From positions 1 to 41,966 of IMG/VR virus record IMGVR_UViG_3300043394_000327: 41,966 bases of DNA, one strand, 5' to 3'. Shown piece by piece: positions 22,892-41,966 of the stretch; the stretch's first letter is position 1, and each line of letters starts with the position of its first letter. This DNA comes from a virus. Taxonomy: Duplodnaviria; Caudoviricetes. Position numbers and translations under genes: made by a program. The notes under the pieces are model-generated. The model made no database searches, had not been told where the DNA came from, and was given only the letters and a program-made list of their open reading frames with translations.

Positions 22892-23064
22892 TGTTAGAGT
22901 TATTAAATCTTGAAAACATTGTCAGTATTGGAACTGCAGTTGTAACGATTGCATCTAGTATAACGGCTTTAACAAATACACCAAAAGATGATGGTGTTGT
23001 TAAAAAACTATATAAAATTATCGAAGTTTTAGCTATTGTAAATAATAAGGTTAAACAAAAATGA
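22888..23064 (+). CDS. small holin-like membrane protein (58 aa, dual Met start)
   Basis: MMLELLNLENIVSIGTAVVTIASSITALTNTPKDDGVVKKLYKIIEVLAIVNNKVKQK; ATGA overlaps with both neighbours; precedes the endolysin. Confidence 0.65.
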   Translation: MMLELLNLENIVSIGTAVVTIASSITALTNTPKDDGVVKKLYKIIEVLAIVNNKVKQK

Positions 23065-23498
23065 CAACACAAATATTAATATACAATACTGCTCTTAAAG
23101 AGTATAAAACTGCTGAGATTGTTGGAGGAATCCATAATCCAAGAATTATTGAATATCATAGTTCTACAACACTTAAAGCAAATAATGATGAAACAGCTTG
23201 GTGTTCTTCATTTGTAAATTGGTGCTGTAAGCAAGTAAATGTTAAAGGCACTGGATCTGCTTTAGCTCGTTCATGGCTTAAATGGGGTAAAAAAGTTGAT
23301 GAACCTTACTTAGGGTGTATTGTTATTTTAAAACGTGGTAATAATCCTACACAAGGTCATGTTGGATTTTATGCAGGCAAAGAGAGCGGTAATAATATTT
23401 TGGTTTATGGGGGTAATCAAAAAAATAAAGTATGTTATCTTTGGTTAAAAAAAGAAAATGTGATTGGTTACAGAGAGATAGGAGATACCCTTGAATGA
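23061..23498 (+). CDS. endolysin, TIGR02594/NlpC-P60-like cysteine peptidase
   Basis: NPRI..Y, DETAWCSSFVNW, ARSW..WG, GHVGF, GGNQ. Confidence 0.9.
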   Translation: MTTQILIYNTALKEYKTAEIVGGIHNPRIIEYHSSTTLKANNDETAWCSSFVNWCCKQVNVKGTGSALARSWLKWGKKVDEPYLGCIVILKRGNNPTQGHVGFYAGKESGNNILVYGGNQKNKVCYLWLKKENVIGYREIGDTLE

Positions 23499-23919: not shown

Positions 23920-26703
23920 ATGGTTCATACAAATATTGGTGGTAATGGTCAAAACGACATTCTTACTAATAACACTTTTAGCGAGTCGTACCACACAGTA
24001 CGGACTGTTTATAATAACTTGTCTGACTTAGAAACAGTTGTAGATAATATTACAGAAATTAATAGTATCCTTAGTAATATTACTAATATTAATGTTGTTG
24101 GGAATAATATAACAAATGTTAATGCTGTAGGTAATAACATTAATAATTTAAACACTGTTAAAGACAATCTCACAAACATTAATACTGTAAGTACAAATAT
24201 TACAGATGTTAATACAGTAAATGATAATATTACTGATTTATTATTAATTAAAAATAATTTAACAGATATTAACACTATATCTGATAATATAAGTAACGTT
24301 AATAATGTAGGCGGTAATATTAATACGTTATTATCTAATATGGGTGCAATTAATCTGGTAAATAGTAATTTAAACACAATTCAAGGAATTGCTGATGTTA
24401 TAAATGAGCTTAATGGTAGATACATTAACAATATCACTACTTTGCGTGCAACAGAACCAACATATAGTAATCAGTTTGTTTACTTAATAGGGCATACAAC
24501 CTCAGGAATTGGGGGAGGACTGTTTTATTATGACATTACTGACACAACTTCACTTGATAATAATGGCACTGTTGTTGTAACGAATTTAGGTAAGCGGTGG
24601 AAAAGGATTTTAGAAAATAATGAAACAACTGTAGAACATTTTGGTATACCTAAAGATAAAAATTCTACCATGACTCTTTATAATTTAATTTTAACAGGAC
24701 ATAAGTTTAAAGTACCAAAAGTACTATATACTTTAGCAGGCGTTGCGTCTCAATGGGCTTCAAAAAATAAATTTCCTATTTGTTTTATGGGAGATAGCAC
24801 AACAGATGGTAGGGTTTCTACTACTAACGGTGTAACTGCAGTTCCAAACTCAGCGTATAATGAATATCGTCTTGTTAATGGCGCAGTACCTGATAATATT
24901 GTATATGATCATGATGAGTTAGAAGTTCCTAATGCGTACACATCAATTCTTCAAAGAATGGCAAGAAATTTTTACGATAGTACTACTTTAAGAGTATATA
25001 ATGCAGGATATAGAGGTAAAGCATTACAAGATGGTTGGGCTTCTACTAATATACATAACGCTATATTTGGTAATACAGCGTATGCTGATGTGAAAATGGT
25101 TATTCTAAACTTTGGAATTAATGATGCAGGATATGCTAGTGTAGAAACTTTACGTTCTCGTGTATATAACCACACTAAAGCTATTATATTAGATTGCTAC
25201 TATAGAGGTATTCAGCCTGTGTTAATGGGAACAAATACAACAGCTGTTCCAACAGAAGCTGGTTCAGGACATAATAAAGAACAAGTAATAATCGTAGATC
25301 AAGTAAAGAAACATTTGGCTCAAGAATTTGGTATAGATTTTATTGACATGAACAATGAGTTTATGAAATTTCTTACAAATAGTACATTTCCTTATTCGAC
25401 AGATTTTTTATTACCTGATAATTACCATGGAAATGATATTTATCACATGAAACAAGCTGAAATTGTTTTTTGTAAATATATTGCAAAAGATTTAATAGTT
25501 ATGTTGGATAAAGGTGATAAATTTGTAGATGTTTCGATGCCTATGAAAAAATCTAATATACTAGAGTCTCAAATGAGTACAGCCACATATACAAGAGGAC
25601 AAAATCAACTTCGCAGAAATATTGTTATAAGTCCTGCAGAACACGATAGTTATGAAAATACATCTGTAATAGAGTTTTGGGTATGGAATGAATGTCCTAA
25701 AATGTCTTTTATATATTCAGGAGTTACACAACCAAATGTGAATACAGCTTTAATCACAGATGTTACTAAATTACCTCAGTTAAGGGCGATATCTCAACCA
25801 TTCACAGCATTAGATTATAGTTTAAAAAATATCTACAGCGGTGTTCTACCTTCTTTTGTAGGAACAAATACTGTTATAAGAACTGATACAAACTACTTTA
25901 TAGGAAATTTGGATTATGGGTTAAATATTATTTCAGTAAATATTCCACAAGGAGCTTCTGCTCACAGAGTAGCTACAAATTTTTTAACAAGTGTAGGCAT
26001 GTACGTTGGTTCATTTGAATTTATAGAAAATCATGCAAACAGTGTTCCTAAAATTGCATTAAATACTGATAATGGTGTTTCTCAAACTGTAGGACATATT
26101 AAAAATGCTTTAGAAAAGACAGGACCATTATTCGCATTTTCTCAAGCTCCGTCAGCAACAAACTATTTTAAAGTGATTTCAAAAGAAGATATAAAAGGTT
26201 CAAATACTTATGGTTTACGAAGAATAGGTGATTCTGTAGAAATGCTTGTTTCATTTAATACTTCAGTTGATGGTTGGGGAGTTATATTATCAACAACTAA
26301 AGTAGACAATTCATCTACAAACGCAGGCACAGGATTTAATAAATACTCCGATATTATGGCAGGAAATAGTCTTGTTGCTTTTTTAAATTCAGGTACTTTA
26401 AGAATAGCAAGCGTTACTACTGCTGGTTCTGTATCATCAGCAGGTTCTATCGATACAGGTATTACTTCTTCGACAATTTCTAACAAAGTGATAACTTTTA
26501 AATTCACTTTAACATCTCTTACCGAAATGACATGGGAAATTCTTTCAGAAACAGGTAGTAGTCTCGCTAATGGAACTCTCTCTTCAACTTTGGTGAGTGA
26601 TTACGCATCAGGATTTGTAGGAGGAATCTTTAATAACAGGTCTATTTCAACAACAGGTAATTTAAAGATAGATGTGTTTCAGATAAGAGAAGTATATGTG
26701 TAA
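23920..26703 (+). CDS. tailspike/tail fibre with SGNH (GDSL) esterase domain
   Basis: Blocks GDST, NAGYRG, NFGIND, DNYH; preceded by a GGGLFYYD...DNNGTV......RWKR tailspike module and an N-terminal repeat stalk. Confidence 0.85.
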   Translation: MVHTNIGGNGQNDILTNNTFSESYHTVRTVYNNLSDLETVVDNITEINSILSNITNINVVGNNITNVNAVGNNINNLNTVKDNLTNINTVSTNITDVNTVNDNITDLLLIKNNLTDINTISDNISNVNNVGGNINTLLSNMGAINLVNSNLNTIQGIADVINELNGRYINNITTLRATEPTYSNQFVYLIGHTTSGIGGGLFYYDITDTTSLDNNGTVVVTNLGKRWKRILENNETTVEHFGIPKDKNSTMTLYNLILTGHKFKVPKVLYTLAGVASQWASKNKFPICFMGDSTTDGRVSTTNGVTAVPNSAYNEYRLVNGAVPDNIVYDHDELEVPNAYTSILQRMARNFYDSTTLRVYNAGYRGKALQDGWASTNIHNAIFGNTAYADVKMVILNFGINDAGYASVETLRSRVYNHTKAIILDCYYRGIQPVLMGTNTTAVPTEAGSGHNKEQVIIVDQVKKHLAQEFGIDFIDMNNEFMKFLTNSTFPYSTDFLLPDNYHGNDIYHMKQAEIVFCKYIAKDLIVMLDKGDKFVDVSMPMKKSNILESQMSTATYTRGQNQLRRNIVISPAEHDSYENTSVIEFWVWNECPKMSFIYSGVTQPNVNTALITDVTKLPQLRAISQPFTALDYSLKNIYSGVLPSFVGTNTVIRTDTNYFIGNLDYGLNIISVNIPQGASAHRVATNFLTSVGMYVGSFEFIENHANSVPKIALNTDNGVSQTVGHIKNALEKTGPLFAFSQAPSATNYFKVISKEDIKGSNTYGLRRIGDSVEMLVSFNTSVDGWGVILSTTKVDNSSTNAGTGFNKYSDIMAGNSLVAFLNSGTLRIASVTTAGSVSSAGSIDTGITSSTISNKVITFKFTLTSLTEMTWEILSETGSSLANGTLSSTLVSDYASGFVGGIFNNRSISTTGNLKIDVFQIREVYV
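24016..24315 (+). repeat. about 10 degenerate 30-bp (10-aa) coding repeats
   Basis: N(I/L)T(D/N)(I/V)NTV.D units, e.g. NITNINVVGN NITNVNAVGN NLTNINTVST NITDVNTVND. Confidence 0.8.
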
Positions 26704-33263: not shown

Positions 33264-35978
33264 ATGGGTTTATTTGGTTCAACAAAGACAATTATAACTG
33301 TCGCTTCTACTGTTTATAATATGTCTGGAGATTACAATGCTGATGACAAATATTTTAAAGCTATTGTGATTTCAGGTATTTTACAAAATATTTCTGTTGC
33401 TGATACTATTATAGGAAATTTATATAACTGTCCTAAATCAAGATTTACTAAGTTTTTTAATTACGCTTTAAATAATAACTATAAAGGTAATTTAATTACA
33501 AAAATTAATAACCGTAAAAAAGTAGATATAGATGTTATTATAGATTACTTAAATCCAGATTTGGGTACATATGTTGTTATAGAAAAAGCATTTATTGACT
33601 ATGGAGATATAACTTACTGGGCTAATAAACATATATTATTAAATTATCCTAATTTAGTATTAACAGATTGGGTAGCTGAATTAGCTCCTTTAAATCAGAT
33701 ATTAATCACTTATGAAGATACGTCTACTGAACTAATCAATCTTCCTACTAATTATTTATACTCTAACGAGTATTTAATTGCTTATGTAAAATACTATAAC
33801 GAGTCTTATAATGAACCAGAAGAAGAAGGAGCAATAATTGAAGTTGATTTTGAAGATTTACCTGATACTTCTGATTACACTACGATAGATAACGATATAA
33901 CTAATAACTCTGAAAGTTTAACAGAAACTACGACTGTATTAAGAGAATATAGTAATACTACTCCTTCATCTACAACAACTTCATCTACATCTAGTACAGA
34001 AGTATTTACTTCTCATATTAAAACTAAAGAAAAGACAACATATCTTGGTATTATCTCTGGAGAAATAAGACATAATTTAAAAGAAACTTATATAGAGTAT
34101 TTAAATTACAATATAATTGAATCTACTGATGTTGATATAGAAGTAATTAATCATGGGTCATACACAGAAACAATAACAACCACTGTTGTTACAGAAATCT
34201 TTGAACCAGTATATACATATCAAATTAACTCACAGATTACTGTATTATCTGAGTTAATAAATGAAGATATGTTGATTTATAAACTTGGTTCAGGAATTAC
34301 AATATTAGATGCTTTACAAAGCACAAGTACAGACATTACAGAAGATTTATATCCTATTATTCCTTTAAGAATTTATAATACTTCTGTAAAAGATATTCCT
34401 GATTGGTATAACGAAGCTAAACAAGCATATTCAGTAGTAATGGATAAAAACTTTGATAAATTACTAGATAATATCGAAGATAACTCTTCTATTGGAGATA
34501 TTGACTACGCATATATCCACTTTGGATTTCCGTTAAATACAGAAAGTAAAGATGAAAAGTTATACATATATGAGTTTTTTAAAAATTTAATTAATTATCA
34601 AGAAAGCACAAGAGAAGAATACTTAGATTGGTTAAATGAGATTTATGCAAATAAAGTCTTTATAGATGATTATGTAGAGTGGTTTACAGCACAATCAAAC
34701 CCTTCTGATCCTTTGTTTGGTTCAAGTCCACCATTATTAAATGGAACTTTAGGAAGTAAAGTTGTAAAACCTTCTGAATCCGTATTAGAGTTTAGAACTA
34801 ATAACTTAGATATTGAAGATATTACTACTGATAACTTTGATATAAGAATTTCTTGGAGTAACATACAAGAAGATATTTACACTGGTCTGGGTAAAATCGG
34901 AGCTACTAAAGGAGATATTTGGTTTAGCACGACTCCTCCTCCTGAAAATATTGACTTTACTACTTTACATGCAAGTTCTGTCGAAACATTCACAGAAATA
35001 GTAAGACTAGGGTTATTTATTTATGATCCAGTAAATATGTTAAAAGACGGTCATATTTACTTGTATCACCAAATAGAAAACTTCTCTTATAAGGTTTTAT
35101 CAATAGCAGGGCTAGCACATAGAAATTATATATACAGAAGTTATTATAATGTAGGTATTACAGGCAAAGAAGCTATTGAAGATACCGAACCAAGTGGTTT
35201 TATTATACCATTAAGTAAGTACGTTTTAAATCAAGTGTCTTGGGTCGTAGGTAATGAAATATGTATAAGAGCAGGGAATTTAATATTTAACTCATGGCAA
35301 TCAAGAAAAACAAGATGGTATCCAGGTTCAGTATTTAAAGTACTTGTTATTGTTATTTCAATAATTATAGCTGTTATTGTAACTATTGTTACTGGTGGAG
35401 CAGGATCAGGACCAGTAGGAGGACTTTCAGCAAGTATTGTCGCCGCTTTAGGAGTTGCAGGAACTACAGCGTTAATCTTAACAGCAATATTAACAGTAGC
35501 TATTAATATGGTTATAGGAATGATTATTTCTGCTATATTAACGAGAATATTTACACCTATTATTGGAGCAAGATATGCAAAATTAGTATCAGCAGTTGCT
35601 ACAATGATTATTATGGGAGGAATAAACACAGGTTTTGATGCAACTGCAATGGAAGGATTACTTTTAAGAGCAGATAGTTTAATATTACTAGGTTTATCTG
35701 TTACTAATACAGTTATTGAAGAGGTAGACAATGTTCAAGAACTTTCTAGTGAAGTTAAAGCATTAGAAGATAGAAATAAAAAACAAGAAAAACTTATTAG
35801 AGAGAACAATGAATTATTAGGGATAGATAGAGCAGATGATTTAATTAATAAGGTATTAGAGCAACTTACATTAGAAGAAACCCCTGGTGAGTTCTTATCT
35901 AGGACATTAATGAGAAGTGATGACATTATACGCTTATCTATGGACGCAATAAATAGATTTACAGAGATAGTTTTGTAA
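33264..35978 (+). CDS. N4 gp53-like large virion protein
   Basis: MGLF....VASTVYN..G, IPLR, DN.S.GDIDYAYI.FG..LN, hydrophobic C-terminal region, ETP.EFL.RTLM. Confidence 0.85.
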   Translation: MGLFGSTKTIITVASTVYNMSGDYNADDKYFKAIVISGILQNISVADTIIGNLYNCPKSRFTKFFNYALNNNYKGNLITKINNRKKVDIDVIIDYLNPDLGTYVVIEKAFIDYGDITYWANKHILLNYPNLVLTDWVAELAPLNQILITYEDTSTELINLPTNYLYSNEYLIAYVKYYNESYNEPEEEGAIIEVDFEDLPDTSDYTTIDNDITNNSESLTETTTVLREYSNTTPSSTTTSSTSSTEVFTSHIKTKEKTTYLGIISGEIRHNLKETYIEYLNYNIIESTDVDIEVINHGSYTETITTTVVTEIFEPVYTYQINSQITVLSELINEDMLIYKLGSGITILDALQSTSTDITEDLYPIIPLRIYNTSVKDIPDWYNEAKQAYSVVMDKNFDKLLDNIEDNSSIGDIDYAYIHFGFPLNTESKDEKLYIYEFFKNLINYQESTREEYLDWLNEIYANKVFIDDYVEWFTAQSNPSDPLFGSSPPLLNGTLGSKVVKPSESVLEFRTNNLDIEDITTDNFDIRISWSNIQEDIYTGLGKIGATKGDIWFSTTPPPENIDFTTLHASSVETFTEIVRLGLFIYDPVNMLKDGHIYLYHQIENFSYKVLSIAGLAHRNYIYRSYYNVGITGKEAIEDTEPSGFIIPLSKYVLNQVSWVVGNEICIRAGNLIFNSWQSRKTRWYPGSVFKVLVIVISIIIAVIVTIVTGGAGSGPVGGLSASIVAALGVAGTTALILTAILTVAINMVIGMIISAILTRIFTPIIGARYAKLVSAVATMIIMGGINTGFDATAMEGLLLRADSLILLGLSVTNTVIEEVDNVQELSSEVKALEDRNKKQEKLIRENNELLGIDRADDLINKVLEQLTLEETPGEFLSRTLMRSDDIIRLSMDAINRFTEIVL

Positions 35979-36012: not shown

Positions 36013-36498
36013 ATGGATTTTATGAGTTGGTTTGATAGTTTTTTGAGTAGTAACCCTAACTCAACTAATTATAATTTTGGTGGTTCAGGTCCTACAGGTA
36101 ATTTATCTTTAAATGGTTTTATACCAAACAGTAATCAAGGAAGTACTATACAAACCTACAACACTGGTTTATCAGGTATTCCTAATGTAAATACAGGAGC
36201 TTCTAATTCTTGGTTTTCAGGTTCTGGTGTGTTCAGTGGAGATAAAGGTGGAGGTTTAGAAGGTCTTGGAGGTATTGGAGGTATTGCTGATATTCTTGCA
36301 GGATTAGGTAATGCTTGGAATGGATTTCAACAACAAAAATTAGCTAAAAAAGATTTAAACTTTCAAAAAGATGCTTTTAACAGAACTTTTGCTAATAATA
36401 ATAAAGTTTATAATCAAAATATGGAAGATGTCTTAAGAGCAAGATCAGCTCAAACAGGACAAAATTATGATAAAGTTATAGCAGAAAGAAGATTATAA
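36013..36498 (+). CDS. N4 gp52-like glycine-rich virion/ejection protein
   Basis: Gly-rich N-terminus, then Q.KLAK..LNFQK..F...YN..MED..RAR. Confidence 0.75.
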   Translation: MDFMSWFDSFLSSNPNSTNYNFGGSGPTGNLSLNGFIPNSNQGSTIQTYNTGLSGIPNVNTGASNSWFSGSGVFSGDKGGGLEGLGGIGGIADILAGLGNAWNGFQQQKLAKKDLNFQKDAFNRTFANNNKVYNQNMEDVLRARSAQTGQNYDKVIAERRL

Positions 36499-36499
36499 T

Positions 36500-38179
36500 A
36501 TGGCAACATTTCCTACGTATAAAAATGTAACTGCTCCAGATTTATCTAATTTAATTACTTTACAATCTCAAGGAACTCGTAATGCTTTTAATAGTTTAGC
36601 TGATATTGGTAATACTATTCAAAATATTCAACAAAAGAATATAGATAGAGATAATAGAAATTTATTAGCTCAAGGAATGTTAGCTAAACTAAATCAAGAT
36701 ACAAATGCAGTAAAAAATGTATTTGATCAGGCAGTAAATGATCCAAAAGTTCCTGTTAATTTATTAACAACTTTAGGTAATAATGTTCAAAAAAATATTG
36801 ATAATGATAGGCTTATTAACGAACAAAAGTTAGCACGTCAATTAACTCAAGGTCCTAATGCATATGACAACATTGTTTTGGATAAGTATTTATCAGAGAA
36901 TAATTTACCAGTTCCTAAAAATCTTTTTGAAAACTATCTTAATGAAAGTACTGAAATAAGTAATGCTCTGGCAAATTATCAGGATCAAAGAAAAGTTAGT
37001 CAAGCAACTGATACTAATGATCCTGAGGAATCTCAAAGAAATCTTAATTCATTAGATGTGCGTGGCTTTAATACTCCTAATATAATTAAATTGTTTGGTA
37101 AAAAACAGGAAGAAGTAGATGAAAAAGTACGAACACAAAATACAAAGTTAAAAACTACTGAGTTAGATTCTAATAAAGATGCGTACTTTAACAGTAACTC
37201 TCCTGTATTTAAACCTCTAGTACTTAATTCTGGGAATGAACAAGATGCTATAGGTCAAATAACAACTGATTTTAAAGAAAGAGAAAATAAAGCAGTAGCG
37301 GAAATAAATAACGCTGATATTTCTCTTGTAGATAGACAAAAACGTCTTATGGATTTAAAAGAAACAAGTGCTAAATATAGAAAAGAACAGCTTACAGATT
37401 ATGTTAGTAAAGGTATTATCGATCCGACAAATACTAAAAATTTAGATTTATTTAAAGGAGTTTTCAGTTCTGATGAAATACCAAATTTAGTTAATGGGTA
37501 TAATACAAAGAACTTTGATTTTAATCAAAACGTTAAGTCAAGTGATCCTGCGTATGCTCCATTAGCTATCGCTAAAAGTGCTATAGATAAATATAAAGTA
37601 TTTGAGGAAAAAGGTAAAAGTAGTTTTAACTCTGTATTAGGAGAAGCATTAAAAAATAAAACAGCTTTTGAAACTGGTACTGAAGGTGGAGCAATTGAAG
37701 TTTTTAGAAGTAAGTGGATAGGACTTATTGGAAAAGACGAGATTATTGATACCATTGAAAATATAAGAGATGAGTTAGGAGAAAATAACAGAGATTTGTT
37801 AAACACACCTGAAATTTTATCTATTATGGATAGACTGGTAGAATCACAATATTCAGTTCTACCAGGTGAAGCAAGGGTTAGGCTTAGTGATTGGTTTACG
37901 TCAAATAACACACTTAAAAACGGCTTAGCAAACATCACACCTGAAAAAAAAGTAAAAGTTGCTTCAGAATATGAAACTAAACAATTAACAAATGTTACTA
38001 TACAAAAGAAAACACAACTTTTACAAAATTTACGAAAACAATACTTAGATCCAACTAATCCTATCAACAAAGAAGTTATTTTAAATAGAATAAGAGAAGT
38101 AAGCGATACATTAAATGAAATACTTTTAACATATAACAGTAGAAAAGAATTATCAGTAAATGAGATAGGAAATAACTAA
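36500..38179 (+). CDS. N4 gp51-position virion/ejection protein
   Basis: MA..T(Y/W).NV.APD N-terminus; located between the gp52-like gene and vRNAP. Confidence 0.7.
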   Translation: MATFPTYKNVTAPDLSNLITLQSQGTRNAFNSLADIGNTIQNIQQKNIDRDNRNLLAQGMLAKLNQDTNAVKNVFDQAVNDPKVPVNLLTTLGNNVQKNIDNDRLINEQKLARQLTQGPNAYDNIVLDKYLSENNLPVPKNLFENYLNESTEISNALANYQDQRKVSQATDTNDPEESQRNLNSLDVRGFNTPNIIKLFGKKQEEVDEKVRTQNTKLKTTELDSNKDAYFNSNSPVFKPLVLNSGNEQDAIGQITTDFKERENKAVAEINNADISLVDRQKRLMDLKETSAKYRKEQLTDYVSKGIIDPTNTKNLDLFKGVFSSDEIPNLVNGYNTKNFDFNQNVKSSDPAYAPLAIAKSAIDKYKVFEEKGKSSFNSVLGEALKNKTAFETGTEGGAIEVFRSKWIGLIGKDEIIDTIENIRDELGENNRDLLNTPEILSIMDRLVESQYSVLPGEARVRLSDWFTSNNTLKNGLANITPEKKVKVASEYETKQLTNVTIQKKTQLLQNLRKQYLDPTNPINKEVILNRIREVSDTLNEILLTYNSRKELSVNEIGNN

Positions 38180-38181
38180 TA

Positions 38182-41100
38182 ATGGTTGATAATAATAATA
38201 ATTTAATTAAAAAAGTTCTTAGTGAAAAAGAAATTTCAGAAAAAGTTGCATTAAATAGAAAAGCAAATGTTTCTTTAGATACTGATGTTCCTAATGACTT
38301 ATACGATCCTAAAGTTTTTTTTGAACAAACAGGGCTTAATCTTACTGATGTTTTAGGAGGAAATCCTAAAGTAGAACGTGATTATAATAATCCTAGAAGT
38401 TCATTAGAATTTGCGGAAGATTCTACTAACCTTGTTGGACAAACACTTGCTAATATGTTTTTAGGTACATTAAATTTTGGTACAAAAACACTGTATGATC
38501 CAAAAGGAACTCTTGAAAATGTAGTAACAGGAGCATATAATTTACTGCCAGGAAAAGAGGTTAATTTACCAGAATCTTCAATTCCTAACTTAGGTTTAAA
38601 GATTTTAGATCCTAACTATGAATTACCTACTTTTTTAAATAATGCTAAAGAAAAAGTTAATAATTTTTTTGATAGTAATTACTCTAGTAAGACAGGTGCT
38701 AGAAAAGCTATAACAGAAGATATTCTTAATCAAAGACTGATTTATAATAATGATCAGTACCAAAAAGATATAGAATCAGGAACTAACCCTACGTATGCGA
38801 AAATATCTCTGAAAGGTAAAAATTTGATAGCTGGAGCTAAATATATGATAGAAGATCCAGATAATTTAATTGATACAGCAATATCAGGAGTTTCTTCTAT
38901 AGTAGGTGCTAATATTTTAGTTAAAGGTGCTAATAAACTTGCACAAAAAACAACTCAAACTGTTGCTGATAAACTTAAAAATACTACGATTGCGTCAGCA
39001 ATAACAGAAGCTGGACTTACTGGAGAAGAAATACAAAGAGAGATATTAAACACATTTGATTTCTCTAACTCAAAAAGATTTAAAGAATTATTAGAAAATA
39101 ATAAAACTCCTGAACAAGCAAAAAAGATATTAGCTAGTGAAGTGTCAGTATTATCTGCATTCACAAATATTCCAATCAACCTAGTCATACAAAAGTTTAG
39201 TAAAAACGTTGATGCTCTTTTACCTCAAAAATATTTAGTAGATATGACTAAAGAAGGTATTGAAGAAGCAGTACAAAATACTCTAAATCAATTTACAAAA
39301 AACACAGCTATACAAAAAAATGTAAATCCAGACGTTAATTTATTTAGTAATTTAGATGTAAGTGCTGGACAGGGATTAGCAGGAGGTGTTGTAACAGCAG
39401 GTGGATTAGGACTTCCTAGTGCAACTGGTAGAGCTTTTGAGTCAGCAGCTACAGCACAAGCAAACCTTAGTGATGCTAGAGATCCTAATGGAGAAAAAGC
39501 AACTAATAATGCTATTAACTCTTTAAATACTTTAGCTACTACATCTGTTGAACCAACACAAAATAAGACTTATACTGGTAGTGAATTTTCTAAATCCTTG
39601 TTTGGTAGTGAAGGTGGTAAACCTGACTCAGATAATAACTTAAAAGGGTATTCTCGTGGTATTGGATCAATACAGTTTATTGCTAATAGATTACAAGCAT
39701 TAAAACCTAAGTTAAATGGTTTAGTAACTGATGATGATTTTATTAAAGTTAAAGAAGAAAATGGTAAAGACGGTTATCGTTATACAGATCAATTTATTAA
39801 AAGATTTAAAAATAATGAAGATGGAATACAAGATTTAGCTAATGAAGTTCAGTATAAAACATTAGATGAAGAAACTAAACCTTATGAAAAATATATAGGT
39901 CAAACTATTCAAGGAGTTAAAGTAACTAAGTCTGGATTAATGGCTTCTGCACATTTAGGTGGAGTTGGAGGATTAAAAAACTTTTTAACTGGTAAAAGTA
40001 ATGCTAAAGATGCTAATAATACATCTATTGCAGAATATATGCAAAAACATGGTAATAAAGATATATATAACGGTAGTTCTTTACAGACTATTATAAATCC
40101 ACAAACTAATGAAGTTAGCGGAGATATAACTACATCTAATGAACCAATAGCTCAATCTACAAAACAAACTGAAAAAACTGTATTAACTCCTGTAGAAAAA
40201 CAACAAAATGTGCTACAAGTTACATCAAAAGAAGATAAAGATGATCAATTTATTGTTAATTTACCTGAAAAAATAAAAACTACAGTTAATTCTTCACAGA
40301 GTAAACCAGAAGTAGTTAAAAAGTTAGTTACAGACATTAAATCTAATGTTTACACAGATGTAAAAGAATCTAACTCTGCTAAATTATTAGCAGTATCAGA
40401 ATATGATAATTTAGTTAATTATGTTGCAGAAGCAGAAGATAATGAAACTACTAATGCAATTAAAACTGTTATAGCAAATACATCTAAAGATATTAAAACA
40501 ATACGAGAATCTATTGAATTTCCAGATGATTTTTCATTAAATCATGCAGATTTTGATACAACATTTAAATTTGCTAAAGTTAGTCCAAGTAAAGTAAGTA
40601 TTAACTATCTTAATAAACTATTTGATGGTTCAAACGAATCTAATGAGTTTTTAGGAACAATGAAAACTAAAAAAGTTGAAACATTAAAAAATTTACATGA
40701 ACAAAATACAATTATTAACGATAACTTATTAATTCCAAGTAAAGGTACTGATCCAAAAAATACTGCTAGAGTTTCTCAAGAAATAAGAGATACTGGATTT
40801 AATGACGATCAGTTTGTTAAAAAGTCTTTAAATAAACATTTAAATGATTTTAATATTATTAATTCTGGCGGTGTAGTTTTAAATGAACAAAATCAACCAA
40901 TTAATTTTGAAGAAACAGTACAAGGAATACAAAACTTTGCACAACACATGAAAGGTAAAGCAGAAGCTATAATTGAATCAGGACAAAAGTATTTAAAATA
41001 TAAAGAACAAAACCCTAATCAAGAACCAACAGATGATGAAATGAGAGTAAAATATCCTGTTTGGACAGGAAAAGAGTGGTACAGTGCAGAAGAAACAAAA

Positions 41101-41966
41101 AATAAAGGTATTTTTCATAAACAAGGTAAAAGTAAAGACTTTTTAGAAGGTTTAGTAAACAATACAATGGTGTTTTCTGATGCTTATAGAACAATTAGAA
41201 CATACAATTCTATAGCTAAAAAATATAATAAAACTAATAAAGAAAATCAATTAGAATACATAACATTACCTGATGCACCTAAAGATATTAAAAATTATTC
41301 TAACAAATTAAATAAATCATTTTCTGAACAACAAAAAGATGAAGTAAATTACTATTCTGGTTCAGACAGCAATATCCGTAAAACTCAAAAATTCATTGAT
41401 CCAACACTTAAAAAAGAATCTGGAGAGAAAGATACTAAAAAAGAAACTAAGCCTGTAGAAGCTAAAAAAACAAGTGTTAAAAAAGATTCTAAACCTAAAG
41501 ATACTGAACCAACAAAACAAAAAGAAGTTGTTGAAGATGTTATTGATGAAAGTAGTTCTGTCCCTACTACAAAAGAAGATTTAACAGATAAATCTGATCT
41601 AGAAAAAGAAGTTACTGTTCCTGATGTAGTTGACTCTAATGTTAATGATGTTAAGCAAGAAACAAAATTAGTAGCTAAAGTAGATGAAGATACTACTAAA
41701 TTAGATACTAATTTTGATGTTTTAAATCCTAGTTTTAAAAGAAAAATTACATATAAAGATGTAGTTTATGAAAGTATTTATGACATTTATAGAACTTATT
41801 TATTAGGAAATGGTAAATTTAATAAAAAATACTATGGTTTAGAATCTAACACAAAAGAAATTAATAAAAAATTTAAAGATTCAAATAAAAAAATTGATGC
41901 TAAAGATCCTAATTTATCTGAAAAAAATAAAGAATTATTATCTCGTAGATCAGATATTTTATTTAA
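38182..41966 (+). CDS. virion-encapsidated RNA polymerase (N4 gp50-like), N-terminal ~1260 aa, truncated by the window end
   Basis: ATG at 38182; no terminated ORF is listed for this frame and the sampled segments read open. EEAVQ...Q...N.AIQ.NV and NFAQHMKGK resemble recalled N4 vRNAP segments; synteny fits. Catalytic motifs are not visible in the window. Confidence 0.85.
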   Translation, partial: MVDNNNNLIKKVLSEKEISEKVALNRKANVSLDTDVPNDLYDPKVFFEQTGLNLTDVLGGNPKVERDYNNPRSSLEFAEDSTNLVGQTLANMFLGTLNFGTKTLYDPKGTLENVVTGAYNLLPGKEVNLPESSIPNLGLKILDPNYELPTFLNNAKEKVNNFFDSNYSSKTGARKAITEDILNQRLIYNNDQYQKDIESGTNPTYAKISLKGKNLIAGAKYMIEDPDNLIDTAISGVSSIVGANILVKGANKLAQKTTQTVADKLKNTTIASAITEAGLTGEEIQREILNTFDFSNSKRFKELLENNKTPEQAKKILASEVSVLSAFTNIPINLVIQKFSKNVDALLPQKYLVDMTKEGIEEAVQNTLNQFTKNTAIQKNVNPDVNLFSNLDVSAGQGLAGGVVTAGGLGLPSATGRAFESAATAQANLSDARDPNGEKATNNAINSLNTLATTSVEPTQNKTYTGSEFSKSLFGSEGGKPDSDNNLKGYSRGIGSIQFIANRLQALKPKLNGLVTDDDFIKVKEENGKDGYRYTDQFIKRFKNNEDGIQDLANEVQYKTLDEETKPYEKYIGQTIQGVKVTKSGLMASAHLGGVGGLKNFLTGKSNAKDANNTSIAEYMQKHGNKDIYNGSSLQTIINPQTNEVSGDITTSNEPIAQSTKQTEKTVLTPVEKQQNVLQVTSKEDKDDQFIVNLPEKIKTTVNSSQSKPEVVKKLVTDIKSNVYTDVKESNSAKLLAVSEYDNLVNYVAEAEDNETTNAIKTVIANTSKDIKTIRESIEFPDDFSLNHADFDTTFKFAKVSPSKVSINYLNKLFDGSNESNEFLGTMKTKKVETLKNLHEQNTIINDNLLIPSKGTDPKNTARVSQEIRDTGFNDDQFVKKSLNKHLNDFNIINSGGVVLNEQNQPINFEETVQGIQNFAQHMKGKAEAIIESGQKYLKYKEQNPNQEPTDDEMRVKYPVWTGKEWYSAEETKNKGIFHKQGKSKDFLEGLVNNTMVFSDAYRTIRTYNSIAKKYNKTNKENQLEYITLPDAPKDIKNYSNKLNKSFSEQQKDEVNYYSGSDSNIRKTQKFIDPTLKKESGEKDTKKETKPVEAKKTSVKKDSKPKDTEPTKQKEVVEDVIDESSSVPTTKEDLTDKSDLEKEVTVPDVVDSNVNDVKQETKLVAKVDEDTTKLDTNFDVLNPSFKRKITYKDVVYESIYDIYRTYLLGNGKFNKKYYGLESNTKEINKKFKDSNKKIDAKDPNLSEKNKELLSRRSDILF

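What the first reader, a model, noticed from the sequence alone, without database searches (positions are those of the whole stretch)
39580..40065. Lysozyme/lytic-transglycosylase-like domain built into the virion RNA polymerase
Seen in sequence: in frame with the vRNAP ORF (about residues 467-627), flanked by low-complexity linkers, is FSKSLFGSEGGKPDSDNNLKGYSRGIGSIQF...RFKNNEDGIQD...YEKYIGQTIQGVKVTKSGLMASAHLGGVGGLKNFLTGKSNAKDANNTSIAEYMQKH. Established knowledge: the order SE-GG, G..QF, AH.G.G parallels motifs I-III of the lysozyme-like/SLT superfamily (ES, GLMQ, AYNAG), and N4 vRNAP is ejected into the cell with its N-terminal region involved in DNA entry. Inference: this phage may use one polyprotein both to open the peptidoglycan and to transcribe the incoming genome, analogous to the transglycosylase on T7 gp16. 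I do not recall this domain in coliphage N4 gp50.
Basis: partly seen in the sequence, partly recalled or inferred. Interest (0 to 1): 0.8.

Follow-up and report, generated by a model that had tools for sequence, protein, structure and literature searches.

The report
Wall-cutting domain inside injected phage polymerase
The giant RNA polymerase protein of this N4-like phage carries, spliced into its front region, a lysozyme-fold domain that likely cuts the bacterial cell wall while the phage injects its DNA; this kind of fusion was described in 2017, and most relatives carry such a domain on the neighbouring tunnel protein instead.

Summary
Observation confirmed. Residues ~467-627 of the vRNAP reading frame (38182 to the contig end, no stop) form a lysozyme-fold domain. 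The model is confident (pLDDT 88), its six best structural matches are lytic transglycosylase-type wall enzymes (Z 7.1-8.6), and Glu477 is kept in 98% of 138 aligned rows. The polymerase core lies beyond the contig, but two full-length relatives join a 90-93% identical domain to the N4 core. The domain adds ~150 residues between the two N-terminal subdomains. The fusion is not new: Iyer et al. 2017 report a lysozyme/transglycosylase on an N4-like vRNAP, and this scan noted it on two other genomes. It is uncommon: 2 of 72 other Schitoviridae clusters carry one on vRNAP (pYD6-A, Vibrio phage 1.025.O, both at the tip). In contrast, 49 of 69 have a wall-enzyme-like domain in the gp51 tunnel protein, four of them from this very family; the window's own gp51 shows none. 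Most likely a movable wall-cutting cassette, relocated from gp51 to vRNAP. Activity and membrane side are untested. Side lead: N4 gp51 itself holds a lambda-lysozyme-like domain with an invariant C-terminal Glu392.

The parts
38182..41966 (+). N-terminal 1261 residues of an N4-type virion RNA polymerase (gp50 orthologue); the frame is open at the contig end and the polymerase core is outside the window
   Evidence: (phrog_2206); no cysteine in 1261 aa
39580..40065 (+). Lysozyme-fold, lytic-transglycosylase-like domain (residues ~467-627), inserted between the two N-terminal subdomains
   Evidence: anchor spacing 520 residues against median 366 (238-448) in 69 relatives
39610..39612 (+). Glu477, predicted catalytic acid at the end of helix 1
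   Evidence: 98% conserved in 138 rows; the family profile aligns this position on the ES motif of solved lytic transglycosylases (each match individually non-significant)
39664..39678 (+). G-x-x-Q-F motif (Gly495-Phe499), equivalent of GLMQ
39949..39963 (+). AHLGG motif (Ala590-Gly594), likely equivalent of motif III
   Evidence: His591 and Gly594 invariant; aligns with AYNLG of a Pfam-SLT gp51 domain (L071)
40009..40038 (+). Invariant Asp610 to Tyr619; Asp610 is a second conserved acid of unknown role
38635..39531 (+). Conserved first vRNAP N-terminal subdomain (residues 152-450); its hydrophobic stretch at residues 228-251 maps near N4's predicted membrane helices 224-278
   Evidence: PMC13434306 passage
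36500..38179 (+). 559-aa gene at the gp51 (periplasmic tunnel) position; no wall-enzyme domain detected
   Evidence: identity by position and lack of cysteine only; no Pfam or PHROG family; no hit with three custom lysozyme-type profiles
36013..36498 (+). 161-aa gene at the gp52 (outer-membrane channel) position
   Evidence: phrog_2646, synteny with N4, no cysteine
33264..35978 (+). 904-aa gene at the gp53 position (tail plug in N4)
   Evidence: phrog_2220, synteny with N4

Best explanation
The ejected virion RNA polymerase of this N4-like phage carries an inserted lysozyme-fold domain that likely cuts peptidoglycan locally, so that the ejection channel can pass the cell wall. Shown: the fold, the conserved Glu477, the in-frame link to the N4 polymerase core in two relatives, the ~150-residue insertion in the N-terminal domain, and the same domain family sitting in the gp51 tunnel protein of four other N4-like viruses. 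Inferred steps: (1) gp52, gp51 and vRNAP are ejected in that order, as modelled for N4; (2) the vRNAP N-terminal domain follows gp51 into the periplasm, the small domain folds there, and Glu477 acts as the acid that cleaves the glycan backbone, most likely by lytic transglycosylation; (3) the hydrophobic segments anchor in the inner membrane and the polymerase refolds in the cytoplasm; (4) the domain is a mobile cassette that normally occupies a slot in gp51 and in this lineage took over from there.
For: Fold and motifs. Of 34 weak PDB sequence matches to the family profile, 25 are lytic transglycosylases or Rpf domains. Of 67 family members, 26 touch PF06737 and 20 touch PF01464 at E<=0.1 (best 7.8e-9). 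Family members travel with wall or entry modules: LysM, PG-binding and M23 domains in 3 of 53 scanned, baseplate hubs of Rhizobium phages and large proteins of two podovirus-size phages. Residues 501-600 are 92-98% identical between the window and both full-length relatives, among the best-kept blocks. Survey of 72 clusters (hand tally): 26 of 69 gp51-position proteins have an intact-looking wall enzyme (7 SLT, 4 this family, 6 related ES-type, 5 lambda-type, one each of GH108, GH73, VanY, SleB-type) and 23 more have an N4-type lambda-like domain. None of these 49 has such a domain in the vRNAP N-terminus; 2 of the remaining 20 do, and the window fits the same pattern. The tree puts the window's domain in a 23-row set (96/88) with all four gp51-borne copies, apart from pYD6-A's. 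PMC13434306 states that wall hydrolysis is required for entry.
Against: No activity data. The best structural Z (8.6) is only just above the range the tool calls common, and Foldseek on the PDB found nothing significant. The domain lies C-terminal of the hydrophobic segments, between them and the cytoplasmic polymerase, so its final side of the inner membrane is not settled. In the N4 model gp51 spans the periplasm before vRNAP leaves the capsid, so a cutter on vRNAP arrives late. 18 of 69 clusters show no wall enzyme on either protein, so detection is incomplete or the function can come from elsewhere, and the window's gp51 could hide a divergent domain. The complementary pattern rests on three lineages, one being the window and one found by searching with it. 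The window's branch in the tree is long (1.7), the bootstrap had not settled, and the one-clade test did not finish.
Confidence: 0.72

Rival explanations
1. The domain is a hydrolytic muramidase with two acids (Glu477 and Asp610), not a lytic transglycosylase. The role in entry would be the same; this is a variant within the best explanation.
For: Asp610 is invariant in 138 rows. Goose-type lysozyme, chitosanases and T4-type lysozymes also match the model at Z 5-6.
Against: The six best structural matches and 25 of 34 weak sequence matches are lytic transglycosylase-type. Asp610 sits just before the T-x(4)-Y stretch and may be structural.
Confidence: 0.25
2. The domain is polyvalent cargo: it is cut off the polyprotein by the vRNAP's own HEXXH metallopeptidase-like domain and works as a free enzyme.
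For: Iyer et al. propose that the MPTase processes polyvalent proteins into units. HELLH is present in P0151 and P0152. The domain is flanked by variable linkers, 130-150 residues longer in P0151.
Against: N4 vRNAP is handled as a single chain in the 2026 structure. Release from an internal position needs two cuts. No cleavage site was identified.
Confidence: 0.08
3. The domain binds peptidoglycan without cutting it, anchoring the ejection channel to the wall.
For: The N4-type gp51 domain lacks the N-terminal glutamate helix, so non-catalytic use of such folds may exist in this family. The window's copy is divergent within its family (about 30-37% identity).
Against: Glu477 and all other family-invariant residues are intact here and in P0152 and P0151.
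Confidence: 0.1
4. The substrate is another surface glycan (capsule or chitin-like polymer), or the domain is a passenger that ends in the cytoplasm without a role.
For: A chitinase and chitosanases match at Z 6.0-6.8. The position downstream of the hydrophobic segments is compatible with a cytoplasmic end state.
Against: High conservation within the lineage, wall-binding partner domains in homologues, and the same family in the gp51 slot where SLT, GH108, GH73 and VanY domains alternate.
Confidence: 0.1

Closest known systems
Polyvalent N4-like vRNAPs fused to a lysozyme/transglycosylase domain (Iyer et al. 2017, PMC5512222; Moraxella prophage DR90_1081, WP_038519592.1)
   Same: N4-type vRNAP with an MPTase (HEXXH) motif and a lysozyme-fold domain in one chain; same proposed role of breaching the wall at invasion.
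   Different: Here the domain is internal to the N-terminal domain and of a family without a Pfam model.
Pseudoalteromonas phage pYD6-A vRNAP (NC_020849, YP_007674286)
   Same: Same domain family (profile E 2.4e-46) on a vRNAP; its gp51-position protein shows no wall enzyme.
   Different: The domain is at the extreme N-terminus (residues 21-165), not internal, and falls elsewhere in the tree, so probably a separate acquisition. It is not annotated in the record.
gp51-position tunnel proteins with wall enzymes (Presley gp80 'contains SLT domain', C121, Zuri, ZX86; ZC03_016 in PMC11619397)
   Same: Wall-cutting domain on an ejection protein of the same three-gene operon. Four uncultured clusters (L028, L046, L073, L116) have this very family there.
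   Different: Carrier is the tunnel protein, present in about 10-12 copies, not the polymerase.
T7 gp16 peptidoglycan transglycosylase
   Same: Largest ejection protein carries a transglycosylase-fold domain; weak structural and profile matches (6yt5_G, Z 4.8; E 0.12). That it eases entry through cross-linked walls is recalled, not read here.
   Different: N-terminal in gp16, different family, and gp16 is not a polymerase.
Coliphage N4 gp50 and DEV gp71
   Same: Orthologous N-terminal domain, operon order and lack of cysteine.
   Different: No lysozyme-type hit in N4 gp50 or LIT1 gp71; anchor spacing 378 and 310 residues against 520 here.

Membership tests
Schitoviridae virion RNA polymerase (N4 gp50 family) | N4-type polymerase core in the same chain | tested here: inconclusive
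   The window ends at residue 1261, before the core. Met in relatives P0151 and P0152 (PF21769, PF21894), which match the window over residues 462-1115 (84%) and 95-1157 (59%).
Schitoviridae virion RNA polymerase (N4 gp50 family) | Homologous N-terminal ejection domain | tested here: met
   phrog_2206, E 3.5e-37; tblastn hits to N4 and relatives.
Schitoviridae virion RNA polymerase (N4 gp50 family) | Last gene of the gp53-gp52-gp51-gp50 cluster after portal and capsid genes; no cysteines | tested here: met
   Gene order; zero cysteines in the three ejection-position proteins and in P0151 and P0152.
Lysozyme-like superfamily | Lysozyme fold | tested here: met
   By their titles, all 50 listed VIA-align rows are lysozyme-fold enzymes or chains that appear to be T4-lysozyme fusions; best Z 8.6. 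BFVD neighbours are annotated SLT, LT_GEWL or tail lysozyme.
Lysozyme-like superfamily | Catalytic glutamate at the end of the first helix | tested here: met
   Glu477 follows helix 8-16 of the model, is 98% conserved and aligns with the ES motif of solved enzymes.
Lytic transglycosylases family 1 / SLT (PF01464) | Score above the Pfam cut-off | tested here: not met
   No Pfam hit for the window's domain. Twenty of 67 relatives touch PF01464 at E<=0.1.
Lytic transglycosylases family 1 / SLT (PF01464) | Motifs ES, GLMQ, AYNAG in order (motif names recalled; ES and GLMQ also seen) | tested here: inconclusive
   EG, GSIQF and AHLGG occur in that order; the third has His-Leu in place of Tyr-Asn.
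Lytic transglycosylases family 1 / SLT (PF01464) | Single catalytic acid and 1,6-anhydro products | not testable with these tools
   A second invariant acid (Asp610) exists; needs product analysis.
Polyvalent vRNAP-lysozyme fusion of Iyer et al. 2017 | N4-like RNAP, MPTase and lysozyme domain in one polypeptide | tested here: met
   Met in P0151 and P0152; in the window only the lysozyme and N-terminal parts are visible.
Polyvalent vRNAP-lysozyme fusion of Iyer et al. 2017 | Same domain family and position as in Moraxella DR90_1081 | not tested
   Protein not fetched; the genome-contig scan returned no Moraxella locus.

The most novel reading that the evidence does not exclude
Every N4-like ejection machine needs one wall-cutting cassette, and the cassette can jump between proteins. 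It usually sits in a slot of the gp51 tunnel, filled by at least eight unrelated or distantly related enzyme types. In this lineage it moved from gp51 into the middle of the polymerase's N-terminal domain. In coliphage N4 itself the 'missing' hydrolase is the lambda-lysozyme-like domain at gp51 residues ~265-395, working with a glutamate relocated to its C-terminal helix (invariant Glu392).
Probability: 0.3. Interest if true: 0.68.

Novelty: new member of a known kind. Interest (0 to 1): 0.4.

Why it matters
The 2026 structural study of N4 says wall hydrolysis is needed for entry but that N4's ejection proteins appear to lack it (PMC13434306). This finding and the survey around it say where to look: usually a slot in gp51, and occasionally, as here, the polymerase itself. 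An internal enzyme domain at a known position also constrains vRNAP topology, because it must see the periplasm to work. The domain family has no Pfam model of its own that covers this copy, yet has at least 1,326 representatives at 50% identity, so it is an unannotated pool of candidate wall enzymes. The fusion as such is prior art, which caps the interest.

Tried and rejected
Pfam, PHROGs and PDB-sequence searches with the window's domain alone found nothing. Foldseek on the PDB gave no match at E<=0.001 for either model. Searches for more full-length relatives by the N-terminal region or the core returned only 1 and 4 proteins. Single-protein locus searches found only near-identical contigs; the contig behind L002/L003 is identical to the window and ends earlier, so it does not extend the gene. 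TacPo2 and PJNS034 were first suspected to be N4-like and rejected: the domain ends a 1547-aa or 1610-aa protein and no vRNAP-sized gene lies in the fetched stretches. L021 (Nepra, wrong side fetched) and L025 (R22Y) gave no complete vRNAP and are not counted. No Moraxella prophage locus was recovered, so the 2017 example was not compared. Small-share sequencing runs gave only short pieces and say nothing on habitat or variation. The circular-permutation idea for the N4-type gp51 domain got no significant support: the alternative hhalign placement of its C-terminal helix on the N-terminal glutamate helix has E 0.33-0.38, and model coordinates could not be inspected. The test of whether all vRNAP-borne copies form one clade did not finish. 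Artefact explanations (frameshift, chance motif, chimeric assembly) were rejected.

Full report
Setting. The window is a 42-kb, 27% G+C piece of an N4-like phage (Schitoviridae). It has both middle-RNAP subunits, terminase, portal, capsid and the gp55-gp50 cluster in N4 order. The genome held is the window alone. The last frame starts at 38182 and runs 1261 codons without a stop off the contig end. Residues 152-450 match the virion RNA polymerase family (phrog_2206, E 3.5e-37). The polymerase core is not in the window. Two full-length relatives close the gap: P0151 (3908 aa) and P0152 (3979 aa) hold the domain at 93% and 90% identity and carry PF21769, PF21894 and a HELLH motif in the same chain.

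The domain. A full phmmer scan found 1,326 representatives at E<=0.001. I aligned the window with 137 of the best 150 (13 gave segments under 120 residues). Glu477 (98%), Gly495, Gln498, Gln550, His591, Gly594, Asp610 and Tyr619 are nearly or fully invariant. AlphaFold2 on a 67-sequence alignment gave pLDDT 88.2. VIA-align ranked MltC (Z 8.6, rmsd 3.4, 126 aligned), MltE, Cj0843, phiKZ gp144, phi6 lysin and another lytic transglycosylase first. The family profile's 34 weak PDB matches include 25 transglycosylase or Rpf chains, with the glutamate and G-x-x-Q positions on ES and GLMQ. The negatives are no Pfam or PHROG hit for this copy, no significant Foldseek PDB match, and moderate Z values. 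The fold is therefore well supported by converging weak signals; the reaction type is not decided, since Asp610 is a second invariant acid.

It is an insertion. Two conserved anchors of the vRNAP N-terminal domain lie 520 residues apart in the window, against a median of 366 (range 238-448) in 69 of 72 relatives where both were found. The domain sits after the hydrophobic stretch at 228-251, which maps near N4's predicted membrane helices 224-278. Residues 501-600 are 92-98% identical to both full-length relatives, while residues 1-400 are far more divergent.

How common is it? I fetched vRNAP regions from named phages and from viral, genome and metagenome contigs (the viral scan kept the best 80 of 404, ranked by likeness to P0152, so the sample leans to N4-like lineages). 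Of the loci held, 134 had a polymerase core, 29 were dropped for an incomplete N-terminus, and 105 fell into 72 clusters at 80% core identity: 19 named and 53 uncultured. All 72 N-terminal regions were scanned with Pfam and the whole proteins with custom profiles. Two carry a wall enzyme. One is pYD6-A (this family, residues 21-165). The other is Vibrio phage 1.025.O (P22/T4-type lysozyme near residues 30-125; PF00959 E 0.0016, P22 lysozyme E 1.3e-4). N4 and LIT1 have none.

Where the others keep it. Three clusters lacked a usable upstream gene, which left 69 gp51-position proteins. By hand tally have an intact-looking wall enzyme. These are 7 SLT, 4 of the window's own family (L028, L046, L073, L116; E<1e-38), 6 related ES-type, 5 lambda-type with an N-terminal glutamate helix, and one each of GH108, GH73, VanY and SleB-type. 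Another 23, including N4, have a lambda-like domain without that helix, and 20 show nothing (L114 was scanned with custom profiles only). None of the 49 has a wall enzyme on vRNAP; 2 of the 20 do; the window's 559-aa gp51-position protein also shows none. This complementarity is suggestive only: it rests on three lineages, two of them selected, with no phylogenetic correction. A tree of 65 of 144 usable domain sequences (10 named plus 55 random) places the window lineage, on a long branch, in a supported 23-row set with all four gp51-borne copies and away from pYD6-A. The bootstrap had not settled and the one-clade test was lost.

Mechanism. The N4 model has gp52 forming the outer-membrane pore, gp51 the tunnel, and vRNAP following through a gp51-NTD contact and anchoring in the inner membrane (PMC13434306, Discussion part 1 of 2). 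Most likely the inserted domain folds in the periplasm during this passage and opens the peptidoglycan locally through Glu477, doing the job that the gp51 cassette does in relatives. That step, the transglycosylase chemistry and the move from gp51 are inferred. The main weaknesses are timing (vRNAP comes last) and topology (the domain lies between the membrane segments and the cytoplasmic core). T7 gp16 shows that the last and largest ejection protein can carry such an enzyme (chain titles; functional details recalled).

Prior art. Iyer et al. 2017 (PMC5512222; passages and section 5 read) state that N4-like RNAPs can be fused to a lysozyme/transglycosylase domain, give a Moraxella prophage as the example, and propose wall breaching. 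Their figure and supplementary architecture files were not seen and may list this family or pYD6-A. PMC11619397 (passages) notes a transglycosylase on ZC03_016, the gene next to vRNAP. PMC9569702 (passages) notes distant similarity of vRNAPs to T7 gp16-like proteins. PMC11445570 (passages) has no occurrence of 'lysozyme' or 'transglycosylase' in its main text. PMC4496689 and PMC3915230 (passages) added nothing on this point. Six searches listed no paper whose title or abstract start reports a family-wide survey of these cassettes; most listed papers were not opened. The scan's own notes hold two earlier fusions of this kind on other genomes and one note on the N4-type gp51 domain.

Side lead. 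N4 gp51 residues ~265-395 form a domain shared by 23 of 69 clusters, with invariant Gly314, Gln317, Trp365 and Glu392. A model of a close homologue is confident (pLDDT 89.6). Its best match is lambda lysozyme from residue 27 onward (Z 5.9, rmsd 4.4, 98 aligned), and 8 of 20 members hit an endolysin PHROG. It is homologous to the five lambda-type gp51 domains that keep the N-terminal glutamate helix (hhalign 98%). The published gp51 construct ended at 359 with residues beyond 255 unresolved. Whether Glu392 replaces the lost glutamate is untested.

Verdict. The feature is real and correctly read as a lysozyme-fold domain on a vRNAP. It is a new member of a kind described in 2017, uncommon in the family, with an internal position and a likely origin in the gp51 slot. 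Interest 0.4.

Noticed in passing
L007:12826-13269 (-), coliphage N4 gp51 residues ~265-412: Lambda-lysozyme-like domain in N4's tunnel protein, shared by 23 of 69 clusters. It lacks the N-terminal glutamate helix but has an invariant Glu392 in its last helix; a candidate for the wall enzyme that PMC13434306 could not find.
   Followed up: partly
L009:22016-22525 (+), Vibrio phage 1.025.O vRNAP N-terminus: A P22/T4-type lysozyme domain, unannotated, at the tip of the vRNAP: a second enzyme family in this fusion.
   Followed up: partly
L066:856-3006, L092:6165-8927, L110:6775-9195, L139:4205-6109 (all +): gp51-position proteins with GH108, VanY peptidase, SleB-type hydrolase and GH73 domains: the slot accepts unrelated wall enzymes.
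   Followed up: no
window 41500-41966; P0152 residues 1155-1271; P0151 residues 1395-1497: The linker between the N-terminal domain and the core carries variable cargo: DUF7831 in P0152, a sub-threshold NADAR-like stretch in P0151 (E 0.097). The window's last ~60 residues resemble a P0152 segment near 1490-1580.
   Followed up: no
window 38182-39380: vRNAP residues 1-400 are only 10-26% identical to P0152 in a MAFFT alignment and 26-66% to P0151, while 451-1100 are mostly 64-98%: possible exchange or fast change of the membrane-inserting front.
   Followed up: no
L005:9846-14489 and L006:9657-14489 (+): The same domain family ends a 1547-aa and a 1610-aa hypothetical protein of phages TacPo2 and PJNS034; it is also in baseplate hubs of T4-like Rhizobium phages and in crAss-like phage cr118_1.
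   Followed up: partly
window 23061-23498 and 23920-26703 (+): A CHAP-domain protein (likely the endolysin) and a tail fibre with a GDSL/SGNH esterase domain lie between the terminase and portal genes.
   Followed up: no
L073:11594-15793 (+): Weak Peptidase_M90 match (E 2.6e-4) at vRNAP residues 1017-1123, upstream of the core.
   Followed up: no
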